64,000 nucleotides of DNA from Planctomycetota bacterium. Its GTDB lineage: Bacteria; Planctomycetota; UBA11346. The notes under the pieces were generated by a model. That model ran no database searches. It was not told the DNA's origin and saw only the letters and a list, made by a program, of their open reading frames with translations. The translations under genes and the position numbers were made by a program. The stretch is taken from NCBI GenBank assembly GCA_014193115.1, contig BJHQ01000012.1:86803-150802 (forward strand), written 5' to 3'. Below, piece after piece: positions 5,582 to 63,482 of this stretch (positions are counted from its first letter, which is position 1; each line of letters begins with the position of its first letter).

Positions 5582-8500
5582 CTATCCTATCTCCTCAACC
5601 GTGCAGCTCGGCGGCAACAAGTGCAGGTCCTCGATCTGCCCGGCACGGCAGACCAGCCGGCGGAGCGGCTGGCGCACCACCGGGGCGATCGAACGGACTG
5701 CGGTTTTGGCGATGTTCAGGGTGATCAGCTCGGCGGCGTGGAGCGGAGCCAGGTCCCTGACCAGCGGGATGACCAAGAAGAGTTCGACCAAAGGAAGACC
5801 TTCGATGGCGTCGAGCCGATCGAGCCAGGGCAGTTCCAAGGCCATGATCGCCAAGGGCAGCGTGCGCAGCTGGCCCAGATCGCACGGGGTCGCTGAGGAC
5901 ATCAGGAACTGCCGCAAGGGCATCCCCTGCAAAGCCGACAGGTCGCGCAGCTTCCCGCCGTCGATGGACAGGTGGCGCAGCGGGGTGCCGGCCAGGGGTG
6001 TGAGATCCTCGACCTGGACTCCGGCCATGCTCAGGATCTCCAACGGCTGACCGCGCAAGCTGGTGATGTCCGTGGCGCCGTGACTGCGATCAAGGAAGAC
6101 CTGGCGCAAGGCGGCGCCCGATACTGCCTGCAACCGGTGCAAGCGCGGGCACCCGCGCAGGTGCAGGAATTGCAGCTGAGCGCTATCGAGACCACGCACA
6201 TCCGTGATCGGATTCTGGTCAAAGCAGGCGAAACGCAGCGGCAATCCGGCGAGCGGCCGCAGGTCGTCGATCGCGTTGTCCGTCGCCGACACGCCTGTCA
6301 GCTCCATCCCGGCGAGCGGCCCAAGCTCTTTCAGCCCGCAGCCATCGATGCTCAGGTGGTCGATCGGCATGCCGGCCAGGGCGCTCAGGTCGGCAGCGGG
6401 TCCAGGCAAGGTGACGCGCAGGCTGCTGCCGGAGAAGGCGGCGGTTCCTCCGGGACAGGCGCGGGCGGCGGCAGCTTGATACCTTGGCAGCCGGAGCGCC
6501 GATTCCTTGGCCAGCTCGATGCGGCGGAGCAGGGCCTCGGTCAGACGCCGGCGCTGCGGCGGCAGAGGCGTCGCCAACAGTTCAGCACAAAGATCCTCGG
6601 CTCCGGCGGTCTTCCCGGAAATCAGCAGACGCTCCGCCGTGGCCAGGAGATCCTCCAGCTCGGGGGCTCCGGCTTGATGGATGCGCAGGCGATCGATCCG
6701 CATCTCCGTGCCATAGGTCAGCAGGCCAAGCCGGACATGGGCGGCGCCCGAGAGCGGGTCGGGATCCTCAATCGTCGTCATCAGATGATCGTTGACGAAC
6801 ACCGCGATCGTCCGGCCGATGCGGTCCACCCGCAGCCGCACTGGCCGGCCGACGACCAGGGGCGAGGTCCGCTCGGCGTGCAGCCGCCGACCTGCCCGGA
6901 TCACCAGATTGAGGGTGTTGGAGTAGGCACCGATCTTCACCTGATAGCCGCTGTCGAGCACCTTGGTGATGTCGATGCCGTCTCGGGCGGCGAAGAACAC
7001 GCTGGCATCGCTGACCAATCCGCCGAGCGGGGTGAGTTCAGCCTCGATCCGCAGATCGCCAGCCACCGCCTGGTCGAGCAGCGCCGCCGCCAGCTGCCCT
7101 CCGGAGAGCACCAGGCGACCGGACGCACCCACCAGCTTGCCATGCACCGTGAACCGACGGATGGCGTCCTCAGCGAGTTGCCCTGCCAGGTCGTACACCA
7201 GGTGCCACTGCCGCACCGTCGCCCGTTCGATCGCCTGAAGTCGGCCGAGGGCGGCGGCCTCGGCGATGCTGCGCTCGCGGGCGCTGGCGATGGCGATGAG
7301 CGCGGCGGTATGTTCGCTGTCGCTCGGGTCGAGCAGCCGTTCGGCATGGTCAAGGTCGCCGCGGGACAGGGCCGACTGGGCGTGGCGCAGGTGGGCCTCG
7401 CTGAGGCCGCGCTGGGCGACGGCGTTGCCCGGCCACAAGCGCAAGGCCTGCTCGAAGCCCAATCTTGCCCGCAAAAAGCCGTCGCCGTCGCCGGCGGCGA
7501 CCGCCGCCGCCAGATCCCGACCAGCTTCAAGGGCCAGCAGCACGCTGCGCCGGTTCGCACGGCAAGCGACCAGTTCGGCCCGGAACGCTGCGGCATCGGC
7601 TGGCCGCCGCTGCGGATCGCTGGCCAGGCTGCGCTCGGCGACCTGGGCCAGCGGCTCATCGGCCGGGAAGGCCGGCAGCTGGTTGGCCTCGGCCTCCACC
7701 AGGCATTCCACCACGGTCGACCCGCCATGGGGCGGGCGGCCGAGCAGGATCTCGCACAAGATCCCGCCGAGCAGATAGACCTCGCTCGCTGGCCCGATCT
7801 GCGTGGCCTGCCCCTTGGCGACCTCCGGAGGCATGTAAGCCGGCGTGCCCACCGCATGCCCGGCGCGCGGGCGCAGCAGCAACCCGCGCAACTGCGCCGG
7901 CGGATCGCCCCAGGACGCGGCCATGCCCCAGTCGGCCAGATAGATCTGCCCGTGTTCGCCGAGCAGCACGTTCGCCGGTTTGATATCGCGATGCAGGATG
8001 CCGAGGGCGTTGGCGTGGGCGACCGCATCGGTCACGGCGAGCAGGATATCGAGATTGCGCTCCAGGCCGAGGACCGGCATCGATTCGCGCCAGCTCTGCT
8101 GCTCCATCAGGCGCATGGCCAGGAATGGTTGGCCATCCTGGTCGATGGCGAGGTCATACACCGGAAGGATGTGGGGATGCTCAAGCAGCGCGCCGACCAG
8201 CCCTTCGACCAGGAAATTGTGCACCCGGTTGCGCGCGGTCTCGGTCGGTCGTTTCAGAGCCACCGGGCGGTCGAGGAAACCTTGGCGGGCCTCGATCACG
8301 GTCCCGGTGCCGCCGTCGCCCAGCGCTCTGCCGGGCCGGTAATCGGCCAAGGCGCTGGGCCCGACCACCCGGCGCGGCAGCCGCTCCGTGGCATCGATCA
8401 GCGTCCGGCGCAGGACATGGCTGTCGTCTTCGTTCAGGGTCGTGCAGGTGGCGGTGGGATCGCCGCCGGCCCGGATCCGCACCGATCCAAGAGCCGGCGA

Positions 8501-9610
8501 TAAGGGACGGCCGCTGCCGCTGCGGGAGATGGCAACGACTGCGAGGTCGTCTTCGGGCGATCCGCACCAGGCCCCGACCCCGGCCTGCACCGCCGCCGCC
8601 ATCGCCTGTCCGCCGACCGGACGGCGAAGGCCGCGCAGCAGCGCGCACAGCCGGTCGAGGCCGAACAGCGTCCCGTCGCCGGACGCCGCTTCGACCACCC
8701 CATCGGTGAACAGCAGCAAGGAATCGCCAGGGCCGAGCCGGGTGGTGATGGAGCTGGCCTGGGCCAGGAACACCAGATCGGGCAGCAGGCCGATCGCTGC
8801 ACCAGCGGCGCCCACCGGCATGATTTGCTGGCCGGGGAAGGCCGGCACCACCAACGCCTGGTGATGTCCGGCCAGGGCGATGGCGCAGGTGCCGTCCGCC
8901 GGGTCGATCTCCACGGCGCATGCGGTGATGAATCGTCCCGCCGGCAGCTTGGGATGGAGTTCACGATTGAGGGCGGCCAGCAGTTCCACCGGCCCGCGGC
9001 ACCGCGGTCTGGCGAGGCGGATGGTGGTGAGCGCAGTCGTCGCCACCAACGCCCCCTGCACCCCGTGGCCAGCGACATCGCCGATCACCACCGACAGCCG
9101 GCCACCAGGGAGTTCCGCGAGATCGTACAGATCGCCGCTGATTCCGCCGACCCCGGTCCACACAGCGCCGAGATCGAGGCCGGCGATGGTTGGCGGGGTT
9201 CCCACCAGATGCCGCTGCAAAGATTCCGCTCTGGCCAGATCGTCACTGGATACCGCCGTTGGCACCGGGCTCGGCAGATCGATGGTGCCGATCTCCTCGG
9301 CGGTCAGGTGGCCGCTGCGGCTGCGGACCAGGCGCAGTTCCGCCTGGCCGAGGGTCAGGATGTCATCAGGGGTCAATGCGGTTGGCGTGCTGATCAGCTG
9401 GCCATTGCACCGGGTGCCGTTGCGCGAGCCGAGATCCTCGACCAAGAAGACGCCCTCTCGCCAGAACACCCGGCAATGCTCCCGGGACACGCCGTCGATG
9501 GTCAAGCGCACTTCGCAGCCAGGTGAGCGGCCGATGGTCAGCGGTCGATCGGCACTGAGCGGCATCGGCACGCCGCCAGGCAGGATGAGCCACGTGCGAA
9601 CCGCTGCCAT
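5582..9610 (-). CDS. multidomain signalling protein: FHA - PP2C/SpoIIE-type phosphatase - Ser/Thr protein kinase - helical/TPR-like region - leucine-rich repeats (1342 aa)
   Basis: FHA motif (PLTIGRSPGCEVRL...SREHCRV...EDLGSRNGT). RsbU/PP2C motifs (GDVAGHGVQGA, FTDGVVEA). Kinase G-loop/VAIK, HRDIKPANVLL, DWG and GTPAYMPPE. C-terminal LxxLxLxxxxIxDLxPL repeats. Confidence 0.8.
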   Translation of the reverse strand: MAAVRTWLILPGGVPMPLSADRPLTIGRSPGCEVRLTIDGVSREHCRVFWREGVFLVEDLGSRNGTRCNGQLISTPTALTPDDILTLGQAELRLVRSRSGHLTAEEIGTIDLPSPVPTAVSSDDLARAESLQRHLVGTPPTIAGLDLGAVWTGVGGISGDLYDLAELPGGRLSVVIGDVAGHGVQGALVATTALTTIRLARPRCRGPVELLAALNRELHPKLPAGRFITACAVEIDPADGTCAIALAGHHQALVVPAFPGQQIMPVGAAGAAIGLLPDLVFLAQASSITTRLGPGDSLLLFTDGVVEAASGDGTLFGLDRLCALLRGLRRPVGGQAMAAAVQAGVGAWCGSPEDDLAVVAISRSGSGRPLSPALGSVRIRAGGDPTATCTTLNEDDSHVLRRTLIDATERLPRRVVGPSALADYRPGRALGDGGTGTVIEARQGFLDRPVALKRPTETARNRVHNFLVEGLVGALLEHPHILPVYDLAIDQDGQPFLAMRLMEQQSWRESMPVLGLERNLDILLAVTDAVAHANALGILHRDIKPANVLLGEHGQIYLADWGMAASWGDPPAQLRGLLLRPRAGHAVGTPAYMPPEVAKGQATQIGPASEVYLLGGILCEILLGRPPHGGSTVVECLVEAEANQLPAFPADEPLAQVAERSLASDPQRRPADAAAFRAELVACRANRRSVLLALEAGRDLAAAVAAGDGDGFLRARLGFEQALRLWPGNAVAQRGLSEAHLRHAQSALSRGDLDHAERLLDPSDSEHTAALIAIASARERSIAEAAALGRLQAIERATVRQWHLVYDLAGQLAEDAIRRFTVHGKLVGASGRLVLSGGQLAAALLDQAVAGDLRIEAELTPLGGLVSDASVFFAARDGIDITKVLDSGYQVKIGAYSNTLNLVIRAGRRLHAERTSPLVVGRPVRLRVDRIGRTIAVFVNDHLMTTIEDPDPLSGAAHVRLGLLTYGTEMRIDRLRIHQAGAPELEDLLATAERLLISGKTAGAEDLCAELLATPLPPQRRRLTEALLRRIELAKESALRLPRYQAAAARACPGGTAAFSGSSLRVTLPGPAADLSALAGMPIDHLSIDGCGLKELGPLAGMELTGVSATDNAIDDLRPLAGLPLRFACFDQNPITDVRGLDSAQLQFLHLRGCPRLHRLQAVSGAALRQVFLDRSHGATDITSLRGQPLEILSMAGVQVEDLTPLAGTPLRHLSIDGGKLRDLSALQGMPLRQFLMSSATPCDLGQLRTLPLAIMALELPWLDRLDAIEGLPLVELFLVIPLVRDLAPLHAAELITLNIAKTAVRSIAPVVRQPLRRLVCRAGQIEDLHLLPPSCTVEEIG

Positions 9611-21954: not shown

Positions 21955-23343
21955 TCAGGGAGCCAGGTTCACGTAGAACGACCAGAAGTCGTATTCCACC
22001 TGATCGGCATAGGGAATGGCGATGGATCGGACCTTCGACCGGAAGGCATCGTGGTTGCCGTTGATCCGGTTGTAAACTTGCTGATCGAAATCGTAGGGGA
22101 CGTTGGTGGCATTGGCATCCAGGTCGGCGCGGCAGTGGGCGGTAGCGAGGATCGCACCCCATTGCTCGGCCATCTTGGTCACTTTGTCGAAGGTGGTCAG
22201 GGTGGTGGTGTCGATGTCATCCTTGGTCGGCGAGCGTTCCTTGACGCTGTAGGCCTGCCCCGACACGGTCATCCAGCCGAGGTAATCATCGACGTAATTA
22301 CCCAGCGCTTTGGCGGCGGTGACCACCCGCTTGGCGTGGTTGCTGCCGGCCGCGGTGTTGGTGGCGGTGACCGACGAGGCGCTCAGGTTCAGGTAGGCGC
22401 TCGGGGCTGATTGCGCTTTCACGTCCAGGATCACATCATCGTCCTGACCGGTGGTCGGGCCTTCGATCAGCACATAATAGCGGGTGGTGCCGAGTGAGCC
22501 GACCCCGGCGTGCAGCCGTTGGGCGACGCTCTTCACTGCGAATTTGCTGGCCGAATAGGAGATCCCGCCGGACAGCGTGGCGCCATAGCTCGCGATCTGG
22601 GCGGTGATCGCCGAAGCGACGGCGCCGCTGACCGCCGCCAGGTCGCTGTTGATCGCCGGATTCAGGTAGCGGATGCCGCTGCCGTTCTTGGAGGTCCATT
22701 TGTCCAGCATCTGCTTGCGGGTTTTGCCTTCGGCCGAGATCAGTAGGTCGTCGAGTTGGCCATAGGTGTTGGACTTGGTGTAGGTTGCCGTGGTTTCGCT
22801 GCTGTTTCCACGACGGGCTTCGACGGTATCAAGATACCATTCGGTGAAGCTGTCGACGACGTTGTTTTCGTCGGTGGCCGAGAAACCGCCATTGTCGCGC
22901 ATGATCAGGACCAGCGACACCGCCGCCCGCCACACGTCGAGCTGGTAATCGCCGAGCACCGCTTCGTCGAAGTCGTTTGCGTCATAGACGACTTTGTTCT
23001 GGTCGTTGGTGAACGATCCGAAATTGCTCGCGTGCATGTCGCCTTGCAGCCAGATCCGGGTGGCCGCGACATTGCCATAGGTCGACAGCTGCGACGAGGT
23101 GCCGTAGTCCTTCCAATACAGGTGGTTGCTGCCGCGATAGAACGCAAAGAAACCCGCTTCCATCAGCGTGTATTTCTCGGTGCGCAGGGCGCTGGTGAGA
23201 GCAGCGTTCTTGGCGTTCAGCTCAGCGACCACGTAGGCGGTGCGGTCGGCGGCGCCGAGCGGAGCGAGGGAAGCGAGACCGATGGCGCCGAAGGCGGCGA
23301 GAATCCATCCGAGGTCGGAGAACGATGCGCGGGGCAGGGCCAT
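21955..23343 (-). CDS. DUF2252-family secreted protein (tentative)
   Basis: Signal peptide plus FYRG...DxH.SNFG-type motifs reminiscent of DUF2252. 463 aa from Met34. Confidence 0.45.
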   Translation of the reverse strand: MALPRASFSDLGWILAAFGAIGLASLAPLGAADRTAYVVAELNAKNAALTSALRTEKYTLMEAGFFAFYRGSNHLYWKDYGTSSQLSTYGNVAATRIWLQGDMHASNFGSFTNDQNKVVYDANDFDEAVLGDYQLDVWRAAVSLVLIMRDNGGFSATDENNVVDSFTEWYLDTVEARRGNSSETTATYTKSNTYGQLDDLLISAEGKTRKQMLDKWTSKNGSGIRYLNPAINSDLAAVSGAVASAITAQIASYGATLSGGISYSASKFAVKSVAQRLHAGVGSLGTTRYYVLIEGPTTGQDDDVILDVKAQSAPSAYLNLSASSVTATNTAAGSNHAKRVVTAAKALGNYVDDYLGWMTVSGQAYSVKERSPTKDDIDTTTLTTFDKVTKMAEQWGAILATAHCRADLDANATNVPYDFDQQVYNRINGNHDAFRSKVRSIAIPYADQVEYDFWSFYVNLAP

Positions 23344-23627
23344 GGGCTGGTTCCTGGGCAGGGGTGTTGGGGCGGAGCATGGGTCAGCTCCGGGCAAATC
23401 AAGAATTTTTTTACTCAAACAAATACCCATATTGTCCAGCAAGGGTCAGGATGGTCCGATTTTTTCCGTCGGCGACCATGTGACCACGATGGCTGGTTCA
23501 CCGATAGCAAACCCATAAACGCACTCTTCCTGATACATTTTCCTTCGATAACGATGACTGGGATGAGGCTGGCAGGGTGTTTGGTATTTTACTGGCCATG
23601 TTTAGGTCTAATGATAGATTCGCTGGC

Positions 23628-23936
23628 ATGAGCGAATTGCCTGAACCACTTGAGCACCGCGGCCGCGGGCGCCCAGCCAAGGCCAATCCCCGCAACCAGA
23701 TGATCAAAGTCGCCTTCAGCGATGAGGAATACCGTTGGGTCGTCGAACGCGCAGGGAGCCACGACCTGAGTTTGTCCGATTATTGCCGACGCAAAGTCCT
23801 CGGCCGCACCGTGCCCTTCAGCGACGGGGGAGCTGCGGTGGCCAGTGCAGATTTCACCGAGGCCCTGTCCCGCCTGGAACCACGTGAACCGGACCAGGGA
23901 GCGCCGGGCAGCGAACGGTTCACCAAACCGAGCTGA
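23628..23936 (+). CDS. MobC-like ribbon-helix-helix protein, paralog 1
   Basis: GRGRPAKANPRNQMIKVAFSDEEYRWVVERAGSHDLSLSDYCRRKVLGR matches the MobC-family RHH consensus (basic arm, 'vRLt.eE', 'glS.SeyiRr..lg'). Confidence 0.5.
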   Translation: MSELPEPLEHRGRGRPAKANPRNQMIKVAFSDEEYRWVVERAGSHDLSLSDYCRRKVLGRTVPFSDGGAAVASADFTEALSRLEPREPDQGAPGSERFTKPS

Positions 23937-24104
23937 GTCTGGAACAGCGGACGACCAACGACGACCTCATCGACAACTGGCGCATGGGCAAAGGAAGTTC
24001 CTGGCTGCTCCGCACGCAGCTCGGCGCTTCGCTGTTTCGGCGACTGCCCATGAGGTCGATGGTCGCCAGTGGTCTTCGCCGTCATCGATAATACCCTCAG
24101 CAGA

Positions 24105-24416
24105 ATGCATGAGCAGCCCGAGGTGGAGCCGCGCGGACGTGGTGGCCGACCGGCCAAAGCCCACCCCCGCAACCTGATGATCAAAGTTGCCTTCAGTGAT
24201 GAAGAACATCGCTGGGTCGTCGAACGCGCCGCGGCCCACGACCTGAGCCTGTCGGACTATTGCCGGCGCAAGGTGCTTGGCCGGACGGTACCCTTCGGCG
24301 AAACCTCGGGCAAAGCGAGCGGCGATTTCAGCGAGACCTTGGCCCGCATGGAAGGTTCGTCATCGGCCCGCGACGCAAGCGAACCCGCCGACAAACGGCC
24401 TGCCAATCCCGGCTGA
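24105..24416 (+). CDS. MobC-like ribbon-helix-helix protein, paralog 2
   Basis: About 75% identical to paralog 1 over the RHH core, 480 bp downstream. Confidence 0.5.
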   Translation: MHEQPEVEPRGRGGRPAKAHPRNLMIKVAFSDEEHRWVVERAAAHDLSLSDYCRRKVLGRTVPFGETSGKASGDFSETLARMEGSSSARDASEPADKRPANPG

Positions 24417-24418
24417 GC

Positions 24419-25162
24419 TCACCGCTTTACGTTGGCGAACACCTGGTTTTGCGGCTGGTTTTTGGGCTTGGGAGGGAAGATCTTGTCGCGTACTGCTGGG
24501 CGCAATCTGACCCTGACCGGTGTGCTGGCGGGAATCCGTTCGGTGACTCCGATGACTTCAAGAGCGTCGAGCACCGCTGGCGAGCATCCAAGCTCCGCCA
24601 CTGATTTTCCTGCCTCATCCCGCCCGAGCCGGACGACGGCTGCATCGCCGGCCTCGATCCCGGCAGGGTCGAGAACGATCCGCTCGGTGGATGCCTGCCA
24701 GGCCTGCTGGCCGAGCTTCGGTCCGGCCAGGATCCACTGCCCGACCTGGTGATTGACGAACGGCGGCGGTGGGATCGGAATCGGATCAGCCGCGCTGGGC
24801 AGGCCATAGGCGACTCGGCGTTCCGCAGTCGCCGCCTGGGCGGTGCGGTGCAACCCCCAGAACCACCAGCCGAAGGCACCGGCCACAGCCAGAGCGCCGA
24901 GCATCGCACCGTCGAAGAACACCAATCGCACCACCAGCCAGCCGACGAGCATGCCGGCGAACCACGCCCAGGCCGCGGCGAAGGCGAAGAACCACATGAT
25001 TCCCCGCTGATTTTCGTTGTGGACGACGACCGCCTCGACAAAGGACCAGGTCGTGGCCGGGGCGCTCGGCGCGGGCGCCACCATCGGCATGATTGCGACG
25101 GGCTTGGCGCGGTTCGGCTTGGGCGTCCCCTCGTCGATCTCGAATTCGCTGGCATCGGGCAT
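24419..25162 (-). CDS. hypothetical membrane protein (3 predicted TM helices)
   Basis: Hydrophobic segments MWFFAFAAAWAWFAGMLVGWLVV and AMLGALAVAGAFGWWFWG. Start uncertain: the ORF extends to 25258. Confidence 0.4.
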   Translation of the reverse strand: MPDASEFEIDEGTPKPNRAKPVAIMPMVAPAPSAPATTWSFVEAVVVHNENQRGIMWFFAFAAAWAWFAGMLVGWLVVRLVFFDGAMLGALAVAGAFGWWFWGLHRTAQAATAERRVAYGLPSAADPIPIPPPPFVNHQVGQWILAGPKLGQQAWQASTERIVLDPAGIEAGDAAVVRLGRDEAGKSVAELGCSPAVLDALEVIGVTERIPASTPVRVRLRPAVRDKIFPPKPKNQPQNQVFANVKR

Positions 25163-25388
25163 CGCTGGACGCTGGCGCGCAGCACGCGGTCGGCAAGCCG
25201 GCGAACGGCTCCAGCGATCAGGGTGACCCAGAGCGAATCCTGCGCTTCCAATCTGCATTCAGTTCAGTCCTGACACAGCGAAGCCAGGATCGCCACGGGG
25301 GCGTCCTGGCTTCGCTGGTCGGGATCAGCGCGCCGGCAATGGCGCGCTGGGTTTATGCGATCGCTTGGCTTAGGCCAATTTGCCTAGT

Positions 25389-25841
25389 TCAGGCGAACGC
25401 TTTGATGATCGCGCCAATGGCCTTCCGCTTGGAAGTATCGGCATTCGCGACGAGCAGGGCCAGATCGTCGGACAGGATGTTCTGGGCCGCCTCGATGGCG
25501 TTCCGGATCGTTTCGAGAGCGGCCGCGACGTCGCCGCCGGCGCTCTTGCGCGGCTTCCGGCCGGGCTTCGCCTTGCGTCCCGGACCGCGGGTGCCTTTGG
25601 CTTTTGCAGCCTTGGGCTTGGAGGCGGAATCGCGGCTGGCGGTAGCCAGGGCCTTCAGATCCTCGACGCTCTTGTCCAGGAAAGCAGCGTACTTTCCGAT
25701 CGAACGGGCATTGGGCACCGAGGCGCCATTGACCACCTTGCGGAAGCTGGGCTGGGCGACGCCGAGCTTCTCGGCGGCTTGGGCGATCGACAAGCCTTCG
25801 GCTGCGAGTTTGTCGGTGAGGAGGCTGGACAGGGAGGACAT
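25389..25841 (-). CDS. XRE-family helix-turn-helix DNA-binding protein with Lys/Pro-rich basic tail
   Basis: Cro/C1-type HTH (LSIAQAAEKLGVAQPSFRKVVNG) followed by a KPKAAKAKGTRGPGRKAKPGRKPRK histone-H1-like segment. Confidence 0.6.
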   Translation of the reverse strand: MSSLSSLLTDKLAAEGLSIAQAAEKLGVAQPSFRKVVNGASVPNARSIGKYAAFLDKSVEDLKALATASRDSASKPKAAKAKGTRGPGRKAKPGRKPRKSAGGDVAAALETIRNAIEAAQNILSDDLALLVANADTSKRKAIGAIIKAFA

Positions 25842-25920
25842 GCTGGTTCCTTCGTGCGGAATGACCGCGGATGGTGCGGCGGTTTGCCGCGGAAAGTTCC
25901 CGGCGGGCGGGTGCCCAGCT

Positions 25921-25980
25921 CGGAAATAACTTGGTTAGGTCGAACCATACATCCGAACTTATGGTCCACAACTTATTTCC
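25921..25980. promoter_or_regulatory. low-GC putative operator/promoter: inverted repeat GGAAATAACTTGG...CCACAACTTATTTCC with three AACTT(A/G)T half-sites
   Basis: Seen directly upstream of the XRE regulator gene. It marks one island boundary. Confidence 0.25.
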
Positions 25981-26158
25981 TTGCTGCCTCGACAACCGTC
26001 GCCGGGAATGTTGCATCGTGATGATCAGGAAGGGACAGAACAGGAATTGGCGGAACGACCCGCGCTCGGCCGGATGGAACTATCGGCTGGTTGGAACTTC
26101 GCCCCGGGCGGACGGTCGGCGTGCTGGCGGCCAGGCCTGCGGCAGCCATCATGCGCCC

Positions 26159-26665
26159 ATGTCCTGGCGTCCGATGCTCCTCAGCCTGGCCCTGACTTCG
26201 GCGCTGCTCGCCGGTGATCCGTCGATTCCGCTGATCATTCCGGGAACGAGCTGCGAAATCGCACTTCCATCCGGCTGGGTTCCGGCCGCTGACCCGGGCG
26301 GGACAGCGCTGGTGCTCATCCGCCGCGACGCCTCCGCCAAGCTCAGCCTGGTCGCCGGACGCCTGCTGGTCGGCGAGGATCTCGAAGCCTTCAACCGGCG
26401 CTGCCAGGATGATCTGGCCCGCCTGCTCCCCGGTTTTGCGGCGATCGCTCCGGGCGGCGTCGTGCTCGGCGGCCATCCCTGGAGACGGCTCGATTATCGG
26501 TTCGGCCTGGGACAGCAGACGATCGAACAGCGCCAGTACATCGCCGTGGTCGATGGGATCGGACTGGTCGGCACCTGCGCCGGCCGAAGCGGGACGACCG
26601 CTGATGCGATCGAAGATCTGCTCGGCAGCATCGGCGGAAGCCGGCCTTCGTTGATCCGGCGCTGA
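26159..26665 (+). CDS. hypothetical secreted protein
   Basis: Signal peptide [19 protein letters not shown]. No recognisable family. Confidence 0.35.
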   Translation: MSWRPMLLSLALTSALLAGDPSIPLIIPGTSCEIALPSGWVPAADPGGTALVLIRRDASAKLSLVAGRLLVGEDLEAFNRRCQDDLARLLPGFAAIAPGGVVLGGHPWRRLDYRFGLGQQTIEQRQYIAVVDGIGLVGTCAGRSGTTADAIEDLLGSIGGSRPSLIRR

Positions 26666-26667
26666 CC

Positions 26668-28902
26668 ATGGCCATCGATCCGTTCCACGGGATGAATCCC
26701 GAACAGCGTGAAGCAATCGCCCATCTCGATGGTCCGCTGTTGGTGGTGGCCGGCGCGGGATCAGGGAAAACCCGGGTCATCACCCACCGCATCGTCCATA
26801 TCATCCAATCCAAAGGGATCCGTCCCGACCGGGTCCTGGCGATCACCTTCACCAACAAGGCCGCGGGAGAGATGAAGGAGCGGATCGAACGGCTGGTGCA
26901 TCTCAAGACGCCGTGGATCACCACCTTCCACTCCGCTGGGCTGCGCATGCTCAAGATCGAACGGGCGCGGCTGGGTTTCGCCAACGAGTTCACCATCGCC
27001 GATCCCGACGACCAGCTCCGCCGCTGGCGCAAGATCGTCGAGGAGAAGCAATGGGACCCGAAAGAGTTCGAACCGCGCCGGGTCCAGGAGCTGGTCTCGA
27101 AATGGAAGAACGATCTGGTCGACGTCGACAAGCTCGACAGCGACGATCCGTTCCGCATGGGCTGCAAGGAGCTGTTCCTGATCTACCGCGAGCGCAACCG
27201 CCAGGAATGCGTCCTCGATTTCGACGACCTGCTGTGCGAGCCGGTTCGGCTGCTCGAAAGCGATGCCGAACTGCGCGAGAAATGGGTGGCGCGGTTCCCG
27301 TACATCCTGATCGACGAGTTCCAGGACACCAATCCGGTGCAATACCGCTTGATCCGGCTGCTCGGCGTCCACCGCAATGTCTGCGCCACCGGCGATCCCG
27401 ACCAGGCGATCTACGGCTGGCGCGGCGCCGACCTCAAGAACATCCTGCAGTTTGAAAAAGATTACTCGCCGTGCCGCAAGGTCCTGCTCGAAACCAACTA
27501 CCGCTCGACCAAGCTGATCCTGCGCGCCGCCCAGGCGGTGGTCGAACGCAACACGGCGCGGATCGACAAAGTCATCCGCACCGACAACAGCGAAGGCGCC
27601 CCGATCGTCCAGCTCGCGGTCGATGACGAGATCGACGAGTCGTGGGCGGTGGCGGCGGCGGTCGACCGGATGCGCAGCGAAGGCCGGCCGCTGAAGGACA
27701 TCGCCGTGTTCTATCGCATCGGCCGGCTGTCGCGGGTGCTCGAAGATGGTCTGCGCCGGCGCGACATTCCCTACCACATCGTCGGCGACGTGCGGTTCTA
27801 TGATCGCCAGGAGATCAAGGATCTGCTGAGCTATCTGAAACTGCTGATCAATCCCGCCGACCGGCTGAGCTTCGCACGGATGAGCCAGGTGCCCAAGCGC
27901 GGGGTCGGCGACCGCTCGCTGGAACTGCTCTACGAGGTCGCCGACGAGGCCGAAGCAACCGCCTGCGCCGTGCTCGAGCGCGACGACCTGCTGGAGCGGT
28001 GCGCGGTCGGCCGCCTCGGCGCCGGATTGCGCGAGCTGTCGCGGATTTGGCGCACGATCCGCAACCTGCCGCTGGGCGATCCGGTGGCCTGCGTGAAAGG
28101 CGTGATCGAGGCCAGCGGGATCGAACCGTGGTATGCCGACCACGATCCCGAGAAGGCCCAGGACCGCATCGCCAACATCCGCGAGCTGGCCAGCGCCGCC
28201 GAGGCCTATCGCGAGGCCCATGCCGACCAGGGCCTCTCCGGATTCCTCGACCACGTCGCGCTGGTGACCAGCGCCGACACCGAGGCCGCCGACCGCGACC
28301 AGCTCCGCCTGATGACCATCCACGCCGCCAAAGGCCTGGAGTTCCCCATCGTTTTCATCGTCGGACTCGAACAGGAGGTGTTCCCGCTCGCTCGCGGCCG
28401 GGTCATCCAGGACCTGGAGGAGGAACGTCGGTTGATGTACGTCGGCATCACCCGCGCGAAAGAACTGCTCTATCTGTCATGGGCCAAGACCCGCAGCCTG
28501 TACGGCGAGACCAAACGCAACGAACCGAGCCAGTTCCTGGCCGAGATCCCCGCCGTCTGTTTGCGGCAGCGCGATGTCAGCGGACGACGCCAGGCGCCCG
28601 CGCCAGGCCCGCGTCCCGGCATGTTCCAGCGGTCGCCGCCACCGACACGCCCCAGCCGGCCGCCAAGCGGCGCAGCCCCGGACGTTCCGCAGGATGGACC
28701 GGACCCCGCTCCACCCGATGGGAGCACCACGACGTTCAGCGCCGGCGATCTGATCATCCACCAGGCCTTCGGTCGCGGACGGATCCTCGGCCACAAGAAC
28801 TCCGGCGCCGAACGGGTGCTGGTGGTCCACTTCGACCAGCACGGCATGAAGCAGCTCAATCCTGGCCTGGCCGCGGCCCGGATGCGACTGGTCGACGAGT
28901 GA
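26668..28902 (+). CDS. ATP-dependent DNA helicase UvrD/PcrA family
   Basis: Walker A (AGAGSGKT), UvrD motifs throughout, a Pro-rich linker and a C-terminal UvrD/PcrA tudor-like domain. Confidence 0.9.
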   Translation: MAIDPFHGMNPEQREAIAHLDGPLLVVAGAGSGKTRVITHRIVHIIQSKGIRPDRVLAITFTNKAAGEMKERIERLVHLKTPWITTFHSAGLRMLKIERARLGFANEFTIADPDDQLRRWRKIVEEKQWDPKEFEPRRVQELVSKWKNDLVDVDKLDSDDPFRMGCKELFLIYRERNRQECVLDFDDLLCEPVRLLESDAELREKWVARFPYILIDEFQDTNPVQYRLIRLLGVHRNVCATGDPDQAIYGWRGADLKNILQFEKDYSPCRKVLLETNYRSTKLILRAAQAVVERNTARIDKVIRTDNSEGAPIVQLAVDDEIDESWAVAAAVDRMRSEGRPLKDIAVFYRIGRLSRVLEDGLRRRDIPYHIVGDVRFYDRQEIKDLLSYLKLLINPADRLSFARMSQVPKRGVGDRSLELLYEVADEAEATACAVLERDDLLERCAVGRLGAGLRELSRIWRTIRNLPLGDPVACVKGVIEASGIEPWYADHDPEKAQDRIANIRELASAAEAYREAHADQGLSGFLDHVALVTSADTEAADRDQLRLMTIHAAKGLEFPIVFIVGLEQEVFPLARGRVIQDLEEERRLMYVGITRAKELLYLSWAKTRSLYGETKRNEPSQFLAEIPAVCLRQRDVSGRRQAPAPGPRPGMFQRSPPPTRPSRPPSGAAPDVPQDGPDPAPPDGSTTTFSAGDLIIHQAFGRGRILGHKNSGAERVLVVHFDQHGMKQLNPGLAAARMRLVDE

Positions 28903-49928: not shown

Positions 49929-51593
49929 ATGCCCGCCAAGAAGATCATCTTCAACGAAGACGTCCGCGATAAGATCAAGTCCGGCGTTGAAAAGCTCGCC
50001 CGCGCGGTCAAGGCGACCCTCGGCCCGTCCGGCCGCAACGTCGTGATCGGCAAGTCCTGGGGCTCGCCCCAGGTGACCAAGGACGGCGTCACCGTTGCCG
50101 AACAAATCGAGCTGCGCGACCCCTTCGAGAACATCGGCGCCAGGCTGGTTCGCGAAGTCGCATCGAAAACCGGTAGCCAGGCTGGTGACGGCACCACCAC
50201 CGCCACCGTGCTCGCTGAAGCGATCTTCCTGAAGGGCCTGAAGGCCGTGAACAGCGGCGTCAACCCGCTCGAACTGAAGAAAGGCATCGACGCCGCCGTG
50301 GCCGCGGTCATCGCCAGCCTCGACAAGCAGGCGGTCAAGGTGAAGGGTGATTTCAAGGCAATCGCCAACGTCGGTTCGATCAGTGCCAACAACGAAGCCG
50401 AAATCGGCCGGCAGATCGCCGACGCCGTGCAGAAGGTCGGCGAAGACGGCGTCATCACCGTCGAAGAAGGCAAGGGCGTCAAGGACGAGGTCGACGTCGT
50501 CGAAGGCATGCAGTTCGATCGCGGCTATGTCAGCCCGAACTTCATCACCGACCACGACCACCTGACCGCCGATCTGGAAAACCCCTACATCCTGGTCCAC
50601 GAAAAGAAGATCTCGAACGTTCAGGAGATCGTCCCGCTGCTCGAAAAGGTCGCTAAGGCCAATCGCAGCCTGCTGATCATCGCTGAAGAAGTCGAAGGCG
50701 AGGCCCTGGCCACCCTGGTGGTCAACAACCTGCGCAAGGTCCTCAAGAGCGTGGCGGTCAAAGCACCCGGCTACGGCGACCGCCGCAAGGCCCTGCTCGA
50801 AGACATCGCCAAGCTCACCGGCGGCAAGGCGATCTTCGAAGACCTCGGCATCGAGCTGAAGAACATCGAGCTCAGCGACCTCGGCCAGGCCAAGTCGGTG
50901 AAGGTCGAGAAGGAAAACACCACGATCATCGAAGGCGCCGGAAAGCGCGCCGACGTCCAAGCCCGGATCAAGCAGATCCGCCGCGAGATCGAGGACACCA
51001 AGAGCGACTACGACCGCGAAAAGCTGCAAGAGCGCCTCGCCAAGTTGGCCGGCGGCGTCGCGGTCATCCGCGTCGGTGCAGCCACCGAGGCCGAGATGAA
51101 AGAGCGCAAGGACCGCGTTGATGATGCCCTGCACGCCACCCGGGCGGCCATCGAGGAAGGCATCGTCGCCGGCGGCGGCACGGCCTATCTGCGGGCATTG
51201 GGCGCCATCGACGCCCTCGGCCTGTCGGGCGATGCCAAGACCGGCGCTGAAATCATCCGCGCAGCCATCCAGCTCCCGACCATCACCATCGCCGACAATG
51301 CCGGCAAGGACGGCCTGGTGGTGGTGAATGCCGTGCTCAAAGAGAAGGGCAACGTCGGCTACAACGCCAAAACGGATGTCTACGAGGACCTCGTCAAGTC
51401 CGGCGTCATCGACCCGGTCAAGGTCGCCAAGAGCGCGCTGGTCAATGCGGTCAGCGTCGCCAGCCTGTTGCTGTCCACCGAGGCTCTCGTCGCCGAGATC
51501 AAAGAGCCCAAGAAGGACGCCAAGAAGGGCGGCCAGGGCGGCGGCGAAGATGACGAAATGGGTGGCATGGGTGGCATGGGCGGGGATTTCTGA
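49929..51593 (+). CDS. groL: chaperonin GroEL, copy 1 (with C-terminal GGM repeat tail)
   Basis: Full-length 60-kDa chaperonin ending in ...[11 protein letters not shown]. Confidence 0.95.
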
Positions 51594-51659
51594 TCTCCGG
51601 TCTGCCCACCTGCAATACCACCATCTCACCAAACAAACCAACTCTCCAAGGAAACAACC

Positions 51660-51971
51660 ATGGCTGGCAAGCCCGCTCCCAAACTCACCCTCAAGCCCCT
51701 TGATGACCGCATCGTGGTCATCCGTCTCGAACCCGAGACCAAGACCACCGGCGGCATCCTGCTCCCCGAAAACGCCAAGGAAAAGCCCACCCAGGGCAAG
51801 GTCCTGGCGGTCGGACCCGGTAAGCTGCTCGACGATGGCACCCGGGCCAAGCCGGACATCGCCGAAGGCGATACCATCCTGTTCGGCAAGTACAGCGGCT
51901 CGGAAATCACCGTCGAAGGCCAGGAGGTCGTCATCCTCCGCGAATCCGACATCCTCGCCAAAGTGCTCTAG
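51660..51971 (+). CDS. groS: co-chaperonin GroES
   Basis: [10 protein letters not shown]...GGILLPE...GKVLAVGPG. Confidence 0.95.
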
Positions 51972-52103
51972 TCGCACGGGGAGGGACTTGGCGCCTGCGG
52001 CGCGGGATGGCTGACGCCAGTATCCCCCGCGCCTCCGGCAGTCGGCCCTCCCTCCCCCTTCCTTCCCAGCATACTCATCAACCTTTTCCTAGGAAAAACT
52101 CAT

Positions 52104-53717
52104 ATGGCCAAACAACTCCTCTTCGCTGACGATGCGCGCCGCAAGGTCCTCGCCGGCATCCAGACCCTCAACAACGCCGTCAAGGTGACGATGGGCCCGA
52201 CCGGCAAGGTCGTAGTAATCGAGAAGTCGTTCGGTGCGCCGAATGTCACCAAGGACGGCGTCACCGTCGCCAAAGAGATCGAACTCAAAGACCCCTTCGA
52301 GCAGCTCGGCGCCGCCCTGGTTAAGGAAGTCGCTGAAAAATCCTCAAAGGTCGCCGGCGACGGCACCACCACCGCCACCGTCCTCACCGAGGCGATCTTC
52401 CGCGAAGGCCTGAAAGTCACCGCCAGCGGTGCCAACCCGACCGAGATCAAGCGCGGCATCGACAAGGCCGTCGCGGCTGCGGTCGAAGCCATCGCCAAGC
52501 TGGCGGTGAAGGTCAAGGGCAGCAACGACATCACCCAGGTCGGCACGATCAGCGCCAACAATGATCTTGAGATCGGCAAGCTGCTGGCCGAGGCGATGGA
52601 CAAGGTCGGCAAAGACGGCGTTATCACCGTCGAAGAGGCCAAGAGCACCGAGACCAAGCTCGACCTGGTCGAAGGTCTTCAATTCGACAAGGGCTACATC
52701 TCGCCGTACTTCGCCGCCGGCAGCGAGAACCAGGAGATCAGCCAGGAGAAGCCGCTGATCCTGGTCTACGAGAAGAAGATCAGCAACCTGCGCGAGTTCC
52801 TCCCGCTGCTGGAGAAAGTTGCCCAGGCCGGCCGGCCGTTCCTGGTCATCGCCGAAGAGGTCGAAGGCGAGGCCCTGGCAGCACTGGTGGTCAACAAGCT
52901 GCGCGGCGTGCTCAACGTCGCCGCAGTCAAAGCGCCTGGCTTCGGTGATCGCCGCAAGGAAATCCTCAAGGACATCGCCATCGTCACCGGCGCCAAGTTC
53001 GTCGCTGAAGACCTCGGCGAAAAGCTCGAGAACATCGAGATCGCCGATCTCGGCACGGCCAAGAACGTCACGATCGAGAAGGAGAACACCCTGATCATCG
53101 AAGGCGGCGGCAAGAAGGCCGATATCACCGCTCGGATCAATCAGATCAAGCAGCAGGTCGAAGAGACCACCAGCGACTATGACCGCGAGAAGCTCCAGGA
53201 ACGTCTGGCGAAACTCGCCGGCGGCGTGGCAGTGATCAAGGTCGGCGCTGCGACCGAACCGGAAATGAAAGAGAAGAAGGCCCGCATCGAGGACGCACTG
53301 CACGCTACCCGGGCAGCCGTCGAGGAAGGCATCGTTGCTGGCGGCGGCGTCGCCCTGCTCCGCTCAAAGAAGGCGATCGAGGAATTGATCAAAGGACTTG
53401 AGGGCGACCAGAAGCTGGGCGCCGAGATCATCCTGCGCGCAGTCGAATCCCCTGCCAAGCAGATCGCTGAGAACTCCGGTCAGAACGGCGCCGTGGTGGT
53501 TGCCGAAATCCTGGCCAACAAGGGTGCCAGCTACGGCTACAACGCCCGCACTGGCAACTACGAGGATCTGATCAAGGCCGGCATCGTCGATCCGGCCAAG
53601 GTGACCCGCGTGGCCCTGCAGAACAGCGCCAGTATCGCTGGCCTGCTGCTGACGGTCGAGGCCCTGATCTCGGACCTCAAGGACGATGAGAAGCCGGTCG
53701 CCGGCTCGGTCTACTGA
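52104..53717 (+). CDS. groL: chaperonin GroEL, copy 2 (no GGM tail)
   Basis: Full-length. About 70% identical to copy 1. C-terminus ...[11 protein letters not shown]. Confidence 0.95.
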
Positions 53718-63408: not shown

Positions 63409-63482
63409 TGGAGGCGCCGTCCGGATTCGAACCGGAGTACACGGATTTGCAATCCGCTGCGTAGCCGCTCCGCCACGGCGCC
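63409..63482 (-). tRNA. tRNA-Cys (GCA), CCA encoded
   Basis: Manual fold: acceptor GGCGCCG/CGGCGCC, anticodon stem GCGGA/UCCGU, loop UUGCAAA, T-arm CCGGUUCGAAUCCGG, 3' UCCA. Confidence 0.85.

What the first reader, a model, noticed from the sequence alone, without database searches (positions are those of the whole stretch)
23390..25990. Low-GC-bounded islet with two tandem MobC-like RHH paralogs, a membrane protein and an XRE/H1-tailed regulator but no relaxase or integrase
GC falls to about 45% at 23400-23620 and at about 25920-25990 against an about 67% background. Between these boundaries are two adjacent, roughly 75%-identical ribbon-helix-helix proteins. Both match the plasmid-mobilisation MobC pattern (GRGRPAKA.PRN.MIKVAFSDEE.RWVVERA..HDLSLSDYCRRKVLGRTVPF). 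A convergent 3-TM protein and a divergent HTH regulator with a histone-H1-like KPKAAKAKG...RKPRK tail follow. A relaxosome accessory protein normally partners a MobA/relaxase, and none is here. This may be a decayed integrative mobilisable element. Alternatively the RHH pair and the regulator have been domesticated, for example as a paired transcription-factor or antitoxin-like module.
Basis: partly seen in the sequence, partly recalled or inferred. Interest (0 to 1): 0.6.

Follow-up and report, generated by a model that had tools for sequence, protein, structure and literature searches.

The report
Duplicated chromosomal RHH regulator, not a mobile islet
The supposed mobile "islet" is ordinary chromosome: two old tandem copies of a small DNA-binding (ribbon-helix-helix) protein that only distantly resembles plasmid-mobilisation proteins, is inherited vertically in Planctomycetota, and most likely acts as a transcription regulator beside a kinase-like gene.

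Summary
Two tandem ribbon-helix-helix (RHH) genes lie at 23628-23936 and 24105-24416 and are 73% identical. A membrane protein and an HTH_3 protein follow, with two 44%-GC stretches nearby. The "islet" reading fails. The low-GC stretches are the two divergent-promoter intergenic regions. The interior has 65.3% GC against 65.7% for the window. There is no integrase, relaxase, boundary repeat or adjacent tRNA, and all 64 kb is housekeeping.

A close relative keeps DUF2252-RHH1-RHH2-TM, and others keep HTH-DcrB-UvrD-LOG. The RHHs belong to a tiny family (17 clusters at 90% identity among 5.8 billion proteins). All located members with named genomes are Planctomycetota, always chromosomal, never next to a relaxase, and absent from plasmid, phage and viral collections. 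They pass Pfam NikA-like only marginally, on the RHH core alone, and lack the MobC motif.

The duplication is old (dS about 1.4). It forms a clade with 93% bootstrap support, and both copies are under purifying selection (dN/dS 0.10 and 0.21). A more distant single-copy orthologue is also divergently paired with a DUF2252 orthologue across an AT-rich spacer.

Best reading: a lineage-specific duplication of a chromosomal RHH transcription factor with a conserved RGRP arm. It probably regulates itself and DUF2252. Interest is low.

The parts
21955..23343 (-). DUF2252 (protein-kinase-like clan) gene with a hydrophobic N-terminus (probable signal peptide). It is divergent from RHH1 and is the candidate regulatory target.
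   Evidence: PF10009 at 243 bits. The start at 23343 is inferred from conservation with L001. An orthologue with 58% identity is again divergently paired with an RHH in L022/L023. DUF2252 is listed in Pfam's PKinase clan in PMC9758233.
23344..23627 (.). Two blocks are conserved with L001: 23393-23427 and 23583-23606. These are candidate promoter/operator sequences.
   Evidence: The equivalent spacer is also AT-rich in L001 (0.36) and L022 (0.52-0.55). The segment 23568-23593 resembles the conserved leader of the single-copy orthologues.
23628..23936 (+). RHH1, 102 aa. It has an N-terminal RGRGRP arm, a ribbon-helix-helix core at about residues 21-62, and a low-complexity tail.
   Evidence: PF21983 at 31.3 bits. 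AF2 places helices at 32-44 and 49-57. The L001 orthologue is 88% identical with dN/dS 0.105. Alternative in-frame starts exist at GTG 23577 and ATG 23598.
23937..24104 (+). RHH1-RHH2 spacer. It folds into a long imperfect hairpin whose 3' arm covers the conserved TGGTCTTCGCCG block just upstream of RHH2.
   Evidence: Fold z-score is -2.3 in the window and -2.8 in L001, although the sequences have diverged. The two-sequence alifold shows 7 pairs changed on both sides. This is suggestive only.
24105..24416 (+). RHH2, 103 aa (115 aa if GTG 24069 is the start). It is a paralogue of RHH1.
   Evidence: PF21983 at 32.1 bits. It is 73% identical to RHH1. The L001 orthologue P0002 gives dN/dS 0.208. 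NCBI names it hypothetical protein LBMAG53_27900.
24419..25165 (-). Membrane protein of 248 aa with a two-helix TM hairpin. It is convergent on RHH2, with 2 nt between the stop codons. It has no family assignment and is not a conserved partner of the RHH family.
   Evidence: No hit in Pfam, NCBIfam, PADLOC, PHROGs or PDB. AF2 places TM helices at 41-82 and 87-118 and gives low confidence elsewhere. It is present in L001/L002 only. It shows no similarity to the convergent genes next to other family members.
25389..25841 (-). XRE-type HTH_3 protein of 150 aa with an internal K/A/G/R-rich linker and a C-terminal helix. It is divergent from the DcrB-like/UvrD operon and is an independent chromosomal gene.
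   Evidence: PF01381 at 28.1 bits. Family alignment. Close relatives keep HTH-DcrB-UvrD-LOG. A distant homologue, P0033, sits between carbonic anhydrase and radical-SAM genes with no RHH nearby.
25842..26158 (.). It has an AT-rich core at 25920-25990.
   Evidence: Overall GC is 0.62 and the core is 0.437. No repeat is shared with the left region.

Best explanation
The region is native chromosome of a Planctomycetota bacterium (LBMAG53 lineage), not a mobile-element remnant. Its core is a lineage-specific tandem duplication of a small, vertically inherited ribbon-helix-helix DNA-binding protein.

This protein family is related at the level of the RHH core to the NikA/MobC relaxosome-accessory clade. 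It has lost, or never had, the C-terminal MobC part and any relaxase partner.

Proposed mechanism (inferred): each RHH dimerises and inserts its beta-ribbon into the major groove of an operator. The conserved N-terminal Arg-Gly-Arg-Pro arm contacts the minor groove of AT-rich DNA. The targets are probably the AT-rich spacer shared with the divergently transcribed DUF2252 kinase-like gene, and the gene's own conserved leader. That would give autoregulation plus control of DUF2252. After duplication the two paralogues act as homodimers on separate sites or as a heterodimer.

The membrane protein and the HTH_3 protein are separate neighbouring genes.
For: Shown:
- The 37 ORFs scanned across the 64 kb are ordinary chromosomal genes (purC, UvrD, RecQ, GroEL x2, SecDF, YajC, AspRS, ClpP, Lgt and others) or have no Pfam match. 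None is a relaxase or integrase.
- Interior GC equals the window mean.
- Synteny is kept in close relatives.
- The family is tiny. An exhaustive HMM search gave 26 hits at E<=1e-3 and 5 at <=1e-10 among 1.84 billion representatives. A second search found 17 clusters among 5.8 billion proteins.
- Every related locus with a named genome is a Planctomycetota or unclassified MAG. Neighbours are DUF4388/PatA_N, HlyD, hemerythrin, MenB-like ECH, LigA, SmpB and Suf genes, and no mobility gene.
- There are no hits in plasmids, phages or viral contigs.
- The tree places RHH1 and RHH2 as a clade (93% bootstrap), each with its own L001 orthologue (100%).
- Paralogue dS is about 1.4 against orthologue dS of about 0.55-0.6. 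dN/dS is 0.105 and 0.208 for the orthologue pairs, and 0.056 for the core between paralogues.
- In L022/L023 a 56%-identical single-copy RHH is divergently paired with a 58%-identical DUF2252 across an AT-rich spacer.
- RGRP is invariant in the eight aligned full-length members.
- A conserved leader of about 45 nt travels with the gene in the main clade.
- The RHH fold is supported by Pfam, the AF2 core and RHH-only top Foldseek hits.

Precedent: plasmid RA3 MobC is both an autorepressor and a transfer accessory protein (PMC4175270).
Against: - No binding site has been demonstrated. The shared GTATTTTA-type motif in the three DUF2252-RHH spacers is not statistically convincing.
- Most family members (the hemerythrin/PatA_N context) are not next to DUF2252, so DUF2252 control cannot be the family's general role.
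- The Pfam AT_hook match is below threshold, at 13 against 17.4 bits.
- Foldseek E-values are all above 0.3.
- RHH1 and RHH2 have the lowest GC3 in the window (z -2.6 and -2.1), although this is close to sampling noise for genes of about 100 codons.
- Only 64 kb of the roughly 150-kb contig (contig length), and not the rest of the genome, could be checked for a relaxase.
Confidence: 0.6

Rival explanations
1. General architectural or nucleoid-associated protein. The RHH core and RGRP arm bind AT-rich DNA broadly, and the protein shapes local chromosome structure rather than controlling one promoter.
For: The RGRP arm is invariant. The family is conserved in several different chromosomal neighbourhoods. 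The sequence is very strongly conserved across genomes of 61-75% GC. The neighbouring HTH protein also has an H1/AT-hook-like linker.
Against: A leader of about 45 nt with short palindromes is conserved immediately upstream of the gene, which points to a specific cis target. The proteins are single-copy small RHHs with a sequence-specific type of fold. AT_hook is below the Pfam threshold.
Confidence: 0.2
2. Relic of an integrative mobilisable element. The RHH pair is what remains of a relaxosome module whose relaxase and integrase were lost.
For: The nearest recognisable relatives are NikA-like/MobC mobilisation proteins. Two RHH accessory proteins occur together on plasmid pLS20 (PMC5675868). 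RHH GC3 is slightly low and the flanking stretches are AT-rich.
Against: There is no integrase, relaxase, att repeat or adjacent tRNA. Interior GC is native. Both copies are under purifying selection, and the duplication is older than the split from L001. Orthologues in more than 12 chromosomal loci never lie next to mobility genes. There are no plasmid, phage or viral homologues. The only RP4-type nic motif in the region lies inside the HTH coding sequence.
Confidence: 0.05
3. Trans-acting relaxosome accessory proteins. RHH1/RHH2 still assist a relaxase encoded elsewhere in the genome or on a plasmid of this organism.
For: Both pass the Pfam NikA-like gathering score. The rest of the genome could not be examined.
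Against: They cover only the RHH core of the profile and lack the PF05713 motif that bona fide relatives carry. A conserved chromosomal position beside housekeeping genes in many MAGs is unlike accessory genes, which are normally adjacent to their relaxase and oriT (established knowledge; for example the mobC-nic operon of RA3, PMC4175270).
Confidence: 0.05
4. Orphan RHH antitoxins of a type II toxin-antitoxin system.
For: There are weak NCBIfam RelB_antitoxin matches at 17.7-18.5 bits. The top, non-significant, Foldseek hits are the RHH antitoxins AtaR, VapB and TacA.
Against: The scores are far below the cut-off of 50. No co-directional toxin ORF follows the RHH in any locus, and the next gene is always convergent or unrelated. 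PADLOC finds nothing.
Confidence: 0.04

Closest known systems
NikA-like / MobC / MbpA relaxosome accessory RHH proteins (Pfam PF21983, PF05713; NikA of R64, PDB 2BA3; MobC of RA3)
   Same: Same RHH core, with the signature S-L-S-(D/E)-Y-x-R-R-x-x-L-G and a basic GRP-containing N-terminal arm. They are the best Pfam and NCBIfam matches. The weaker hits of the family profile are genuine MobC/NikA-like proteins. RA3 MobC also acts as an autorepressor (PMC4175270).
   Different: Only profile positions 2-43 of 72 match, at 31-32 bits. Bona fide relatives from the same search that also carry the MobC motif score 61-79 bits (P0020, P0025). There is no PF05713 motif. There is no adjacent relaxase or oriT in the window or in more than 12 related loci. 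The genes are chromosomal and vertically inherited, and they are absent from plasmid collections.
Two-RHH auxiliary pair Aux1/Aux2 of Bacillus plasmid pLS20 (PMC5675868)
   Same: Two RHH genes side by side.
   Different: The pLS20 proteins are encoded on a conjugative plasmid and are essential for conjugation (PMC5675868, title). Here the two are recent paralogues, 73% identical, in a housekeeping neighbourhood.
CopG/Arc/MetJ-type RHH transcriptional repressors (for example CopG, Arc, AmrZ)
   Same: Small size, the RHH fold, and a likely dimeric operator-binding autorepressor located at its own promoter. All of these appear among the Foldseek hits.
   Different: No significant sequence or Foldseek match (E>0.3). 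PF01402 RHH_1 is not matched by the window proteins. They have an extra RGRP arm and a roughly 40-aa low-complexity tail.
RHH antitoxins (AtaR, TacA, RelB/ParD type)
   Same: An RHH followed by a flexible C-terminal tail. These are the top-ranked Foldseek neighbours.
   Different: No toxin partner is present, and family scores are far below the cut-offs.

Membership tests
Relaxosome accessory RHH (NikA-like PF21983 / MobC PF05713) | RHH domain scoring above the curated Pfam threshold for PF21983 | tested here: met
   31.3 and 32.1 bits against a cut-off of 27, but only profile positions 2-43 of 72 are covered. The orthologue P0006 falls below the cut-off at 25.1 bits.
Relaxosome accessory RHH (NikA-like PF21983 / MobC PF05713) | C-terminal part of the family (profile positions 44-72, or the MobC 'GNNLNQIA' motif of PF05713) | tested here: not met
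   No PF05713 hit at E<=1. Bona fide relatives cover profile positions from 2-6 to 67-71 at 61-79 bits (P0012, P0020, P0022, P0025), and P0020 and P0025 also hit PF05713.
Relaxosome accessory RHH (NikA-like PF21983 / MobC PF05713) | Adjacent relaxase gene and oriT | tested here: not met
   No relaxase among the 37 ORFs scanned in the 64-kb window, nor in the flanks of L003-L008, L021-L027 and two no-DNA contigs. There is no RP4-type nic motif in the intergenic regions. Other nic types were not tested.
Relaxosome accessory RHH (NikA-like PF21983 / MobC PF05713) | Carried on a plasmid, ICE or IME | tested here: not met
   No tblastn hit in 72,556 plasmids or 50,697 phages, and none in IMG/VR. 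All contexts are chromosomal.
Relaxosome accessory RHH (NikA-like PF21983 / MobC PF05713) | Binds oriT and stimulates relaxase nicking | not testable with these tools
   Requires biochemistry.
Integrative mobilisable element / genomic island | Integrase or recombinase gene | tested here: not met
   None among the scanned ORFs of the window.
Integrative mobilisable element / genomic island | Flanking direct repeats (att) and/or insertion next to a tRNA | tested here: not met
   There is no boundary repeat longer than chance 12-15-mers. The only tRNA, tRNA-Cys, is at 63409, about 37 kb away.
Integrative mobilisable element / genomic island | Composition different from the host | tested here: not met
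   The interior has 65.3% GC against 65.7% for the window. Only the intergenic stretches are AT-rich, as at other places in the window. RHH GC3 is mildly low (z about -2), within sampling noise for 100 codons.
Integrative mobilisable element / genomic island | Variable presence among relatives | tested here: not met
   The same gene order is found in L001/L002 and in L010/L014. DUF2252-RHH adjacency is found even at 56-58% identity. The TM-HTH junction itself was not spanned by any relative's contig.
RHH transcription factor superfamily (CopG/Arc/MetJ-like) | Ribbon-helix-helix fold | tested here: inconclusive
   The AF2 monomer gives helices 32-44 and 49-57, with pLDDT of about 70-88 for residues 21-60. 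No beta-strand was modelled, and none is expected to form without the dimer partner. All top Foldseek hits are RHH proteins but have E>0.3. The sequence-level Pfam RHH-family match is significant.
RHH transcription factor superfamily (CopG/Arc/MetJ-like) | Sequence-specific operator binding and repression | not testable with these tools
   The only evidence is candidate cis elements: conserved blocks at 23393-23427 and 23583-23606, and the family leader.
Type II antitoxin (RHH class) | Co-transcribed toxin gene | tested here: not met
   No co-directional downstream ORF exists in any locus. RelB_antitoxin scores 17.7-18.5 bits against a cut-off of 50.
AT-hook | Pfam PF02178 match with a GRP core flanked by basic residues | tested here: inconclusive
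   RHH1 residues 11-20 score 13 bits against a cut-off of 17.4. The R-G-R-P core is invariant in 8 aligned members.

The most novel reading that the evidence does not exclude
A relaxosome-accessory-type RHH was exapted early in a Planctomycetota lineage into a chromosomal regulator. It has an AT-hook-like arm and carries its own conserved operator/leader. In the LBMAG53 lineage it controls a secreted kinase-like DUF2252 protein. There it has duplicated into a pair that may work as a heterodimer, with a structured RNA hairpin between the two genes tuning expression of the second copy.
Probability: 0.3. Interest if true: 0.35.

Novelty: new member of a known kind. Interest (0 to 1): 0.2.

Why it matters
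The result removes a false mobile-element call. AT-rich intergenic promoters in a high-GC genome can mimic island boundaries. A marginal Pfam "mobilisation protein" hit on an RHH core does not imply a relaxosome. It also defines a small, uncharacterised Planctomycetota-restricted RHH family with a conserved RGRP arm and a conserved upstream leader. This gives one testable regulatory hypothesis, control of a DUF2252 kinase-like gene, in a phylum where few transcription factors are characterised. The wider significance is modest.

Tried and rejected
- **PDB sequence searches.** The RHH profile and the TM and HTH proteins gave no hits.
- **Foldseek of the RHH model.** It returned only non-significant hits, so it cannot separate NikA/MobC from CopG/Arc or antitoxins.
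- **AF2 of the TM protein.** Run from a single sequence, it resolved only the TM hairpin, so no fold search was run.
- **PADLOC and PHROGs.** Nothing was found for the RHH or TM proteins.
- **Rfam.** The only match over 23000-26300 is a spurious miRNA hit on the 25276-25317 hairpin.
- **RP4-type nic motif YATCCTGY.** There are 19 copies in the window, mostly in coding sequence, and none in the RHH intergenic regions. It is uninformative.
- **Motif GGTATTTTAC.** It occurs exactly once in the window. The shuffle test is inflated by AT-rich patches, and the shared 8-mer with L022 could be chance. I rejected it as proof of an operator.
- **RNA structure for the main-clade leader.** There is no support: -1.9 kcal/mol and no covariation.
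- **Upstream ORF in the leader.** The upstream ATG is out of frame with the RHH in most loci (35 nt before the start), and no stop is created at the ATGTCC start. I rejected this reading.
- **Homology between the TM protein and the convergent ~140-aa gene of the main clade, or the HEAT protein of L022.** None was found.
- **Linking the ends of contigs L001 and L014/L010 across the TM-HTH junction.** The intergenic sequences have diverged, so adjacency of TM and HTH in relatives stays unproven.
- **Repeats of the intergenic segments elsewhere in the window.** None were found.
Full report
**What is there.** The window is from a Planctomycetota MAG. NCBI names two of the proteins LBMAG53_27900 and LBMAG53_27920. 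Gene order around the finding is:
- DUF2252 at 21955-23343(-)
- a 284-nt AT-rich spacer
- RHH1 at 23628-23936(+)
- a 168-nt spacer
- RHH2 at 24105-24416(+)
- a membrane protein at 24419-25165(-), whose stop codon lies 2 nt from that of RHH2
- an HTH_3 protein at 25389-25841(-)
- a 317-nt spacer
- a DcrB-like gene at 26159-26665(+), directly followed by UvrD/PcrA at 26668-28902(+)

RHH1 and RHH2 are 73% identical over 85 residues. Their core DNA is 82% identical over 158 nt at a spacing of 477 nt.

**Checking the observation.** Both stretches lie in intergenic regions between divergently transcribed genes. The sequence between them has 65.3% GC, the same as the genome. The window holds about six such low-GC patches with GC below 52% in 150-nt windows, and the one at 23360-23672 is the deepest. 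RHH1 and RHH2 have the lowest GC3 of the 46 ORFs taken as genes in the window (0.70 and 0.72 against 0.81 +/- 0.04). For about 100 codons that is close to sampling noise.

Three details needed correcting.
- The membrane protein has two long TM helices, not three.
- The basic KPKAAKAKG...RKPRK stretch of the HTH protein is an internal linker, not a tail.
- The family match is Pfam NikA-like (PF21983), at 31.3 and 32.1 bits against a cut-off of 27. It covers only positions 2-43 of the 72-position profile. PF05713 (MobC) is not matched. NCBIfam MbpA, MobA and RelB matches are far below their cut-offs.

**Is it an islet?** Every larger ORF of the 64 kb that could be annotated is housekeeping or ordinary chromosomal. 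These include fatty-acid desaturase, an FHA-PP2C-kinase, ClpP, AspRS, an ABC transporter, purC, UvrD, LOG, RecQ, an Hsp70-like protein, Lgt, purB, two GroEL genes, SecDF, YajC and an SPFH protein. There is no integrase, relaxase or T4SS gene. The only tRNA is about 37 kb away. No repeat marks the two supposed boundaries.

Metagenomic contigs from close relatives keep the same order. L001 and L002 carry DUF2252-RHH1-RHH2-TM, with protein identities of 93%, 89%, 77% and 85%. L010 and L014 carry HTH-DcrB-UvrD-LOG. No contig from a relative spans the TM-HTH junction, so that one adjacency is unverified.

**What the RHH proteins are.** The family is very small. An exhaustive HMM search of 1.84 billion representatives found 26 proteins at E<=1e-3, and only 5 at <=1e-10. 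A profile search of 5.8 billion proteins found 17 clusters at 90% identity. Scans of genome and metagenome contigs gave 13 loci. Two of them (L009, L020) are weak 40%-identity matches outside the family. All loci from the genome scan that belong to the family come from Planctomycetota or unclassified MAGs.

In these loci the gene is single-copy and about 86-90 aa long. It is strongly conserved (PRPRGRPRSENPRDQVIKVSLTAEEYAWVVARARVHDLPLADYCRRKILGRSVPADELG) across genomes of 61-75% GC. Its neighbours are chromosomal:
- a giant PatA_N/DUF4388 protein, some copies with HlyD-type domains, lies upstream;
- a conserved convergent protein of about 140 aa and a hemerythrin gene lie downstream;
- in other loci the neighbours are MenB-like enoyl-CoA hydratase, URO-D-like, LigA, SufE, SmpB, ThiG and sensor kinases.

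No locus has a relaxase or integrase nearby. tblastn against 72,556 plasmids and 50,697 phages found nothing, and a scan of IMG/VR found nothing.

The weaker hits of the family profile are genuine mobilisation proteins. They cover the whole NikA-like profile at 61-79 bits, and two of them also carry the PF05713 MobC motif. The family therefore looks like an offshoot of the mobilisation-type RHH clade that keeps only the RHH core.

The AF2 model shows the two helices (32-44 and 49-57) with a core pLDDT of 70-88. Foldseek's best PDB neighbours are all RHH proteins: AtaR, VapB, TacA, Arc, CopG, AmrZ and NikA 2BA3. None is significant, so structure cannot discriminate between the RHH sub-families.

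**The duplication.** In a neighbour-joining tree RHH1 and RHH2 form a clade with 93% bootstrap support. Each groups with its own L001 orthologue at 100%, and P0004 is the next outgroup at 95%. Synonymous divergence between the paralogues is saturated (dS about 1.4), against about 0.55-0.6 between orthologues. dN/dS is 0.105 for RHH1 and 0.208 for RHH2, and 0.056 for the core between paralogues. Both copies are therefore old, functional and maintained, not decaying.

**What it probably does.** A more distant single-copy member, P0006 in L022/L023 (56% identity), is again divergently paired with a DUF2252 orthologue (58% identity over 460 aa) across an AT-rich spacer. The window clade and L022 fall on different sides of the family tree. 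The DUF2252<->RHH arrangement is thus either ancestral or recurrent, and both suggest a functional link. DUF2252 belongs to Pfam's protein-kinase-like clan (PMC9758233). The copy here has a hydrophobic N-terminus typical of a signal peptide (inference from the sequence).

Between the window and L001 the spacer is mostly unalignable, apart from two blocks: 23393-23427 (about 30 of 34 identical) and 23583-23606 (24 of 24). In the main clade a leader of about 45 nt (AGGATCCCATGGCGCTG...GGTGTGATTAGGGTACCCGA) lies directly upstream of the start codon. It is conserved even where the upstream gene differs. It shows no RNA-structure signal. The window's 23568-23593 resembles the L005 version of this leader, sharing the 11-mer CTGGCAGGGTG.

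All full-length members carry an invariant R-G-R-P just before the beta-strand. This is an AT-hook-like core, although it scores below Pfam's AT_hook threshold.

I infer a dimeric RHH repressor. Its ribbon would read an operator in its own leader or the shared spacer, and its RGRP arm would sit in the AT-rich minor groove. It would control itself and, in this lineage, DUF2252. The autorepressor activity of RA3 MobC is a precedent within the nearest known family (PMC4175270). No binding has been shown. The recurring GTATTTTA-type motif is not statistically convincing.

**The other two genes.** The membrane protein has no detectable family. It occurs next to the RHHs only in the closest relatives. 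It is unrelated to the convergent genes found beside other family members. The HTH_3 protein belongs to a small family built of an HTH, a basic linker and a helix. Its close members stay beside DcrB-UvrD. A distant member sits between carbonic anhydrase and radical-SAM genes, with no RHH nearby. Neither gene forms a conserved module with the RHHs.

**Verdict.** The region is native chromosome. It carries an old tandem duplication of a Planctomycetota-specific RHH DNA-binding protein that is most likely a transcriptional (auto)regulator linked to DUF2252. It is a new member of a known kind, and interest is low (0.2).

Noticed in passing
L003:9895-9943, L007:8835-8882, L008, L017, L018, L019, L024 (upstream of the RHH start); compare window 23568-23593: A leader of about 45 nt, AGGATCCCATGGCGCTG..GGTGTGATTAGGGTACCCGA, with three 6-bp palindromes (GGATCC, CCATGG, GGTACC), is conserved directly upstream of the single-copy RHH gene. 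It is conserved even where the upstream neighbour differs. RNAalifold gives no structure support, so it is probably a DNA operator/promoter or a translation-initiation element.
   Followed up: partly
window 23937-24104; L001:1605-1813: The spacer between RHH1 and RHH2 folds into a long imperfect hairpin in both organisms (z -2.3 and -2.8), although the sequences have diverged. The 3' arm includes the conserved TGGTCTTCGCCG block just before RHH2. It may be a structured mRNA element affecting RHH2 expression. Only two sequences are available.
   Followed up: partly
L022:3080-4851 and L023:1666-3437: A DUF2252 orthologue (58% identity) and a single-copy RHH orthologue (56% identity) are divergently paired across an AT-rich spacer of 146 nt. 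This is the same arrangement as window 21955-23936.
   Followed up: yes
L021, L024, L025, L027 and contigs: The main-clade neighbourhood recurs: giant PatA_N/DUF4388 protein -> RHH -> convergent uncharacterised ~140-aa protein (MSLTD...VELTLFKGQLASVRV) -> hemerythrin. The ~140-aa protein has no Pfam family.
   Followed up: partly
window 25389-25841(-); P0033-P0035: There is a small protein family built of an HTH_3 domain, a K/A/G/R-rich H1/AT-hook-like linker and a C-terminal helix. Distant members carry GRGRPAKAAK, the same motif type as the RHH arm. It may be a nucleoid-associated regulator family of Planctomycetota.
   Followed up: partly
window 25276-25317: A perfect 14-bp inverted repeat with a 14-nt loop (CAGCGAAGCCAGGA / TCCTGGCTTCGCTG) lies between the HTH stop and the membrane-protein start on the - strand. 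No T-run follows it. L010 has a different hairpin at the same place. It is probably a transcript-end or stability hairpin.
   Followed up: no
window 24414-24421; L001:2126-2133: The stop codons of RHH2 and the convergent membrane-protein gene are 2 nt apart in both organisms, so their transcripts must overlap or terminate within each other's coding sequence.
   Followed up: no
window 49929-53717: Two GroEL (Cpn60) paralogues are separated by a 103-aa ORF at 51660-51971 that was not scanned.
   Followed up: no
window 5582-9610(-): A large 1342-aa multidomain signalling protein combines FHA, PP2C (SpoIIE), a Ser/Thr kinase domain and LRR in one polypeptide.
   Followed up: no
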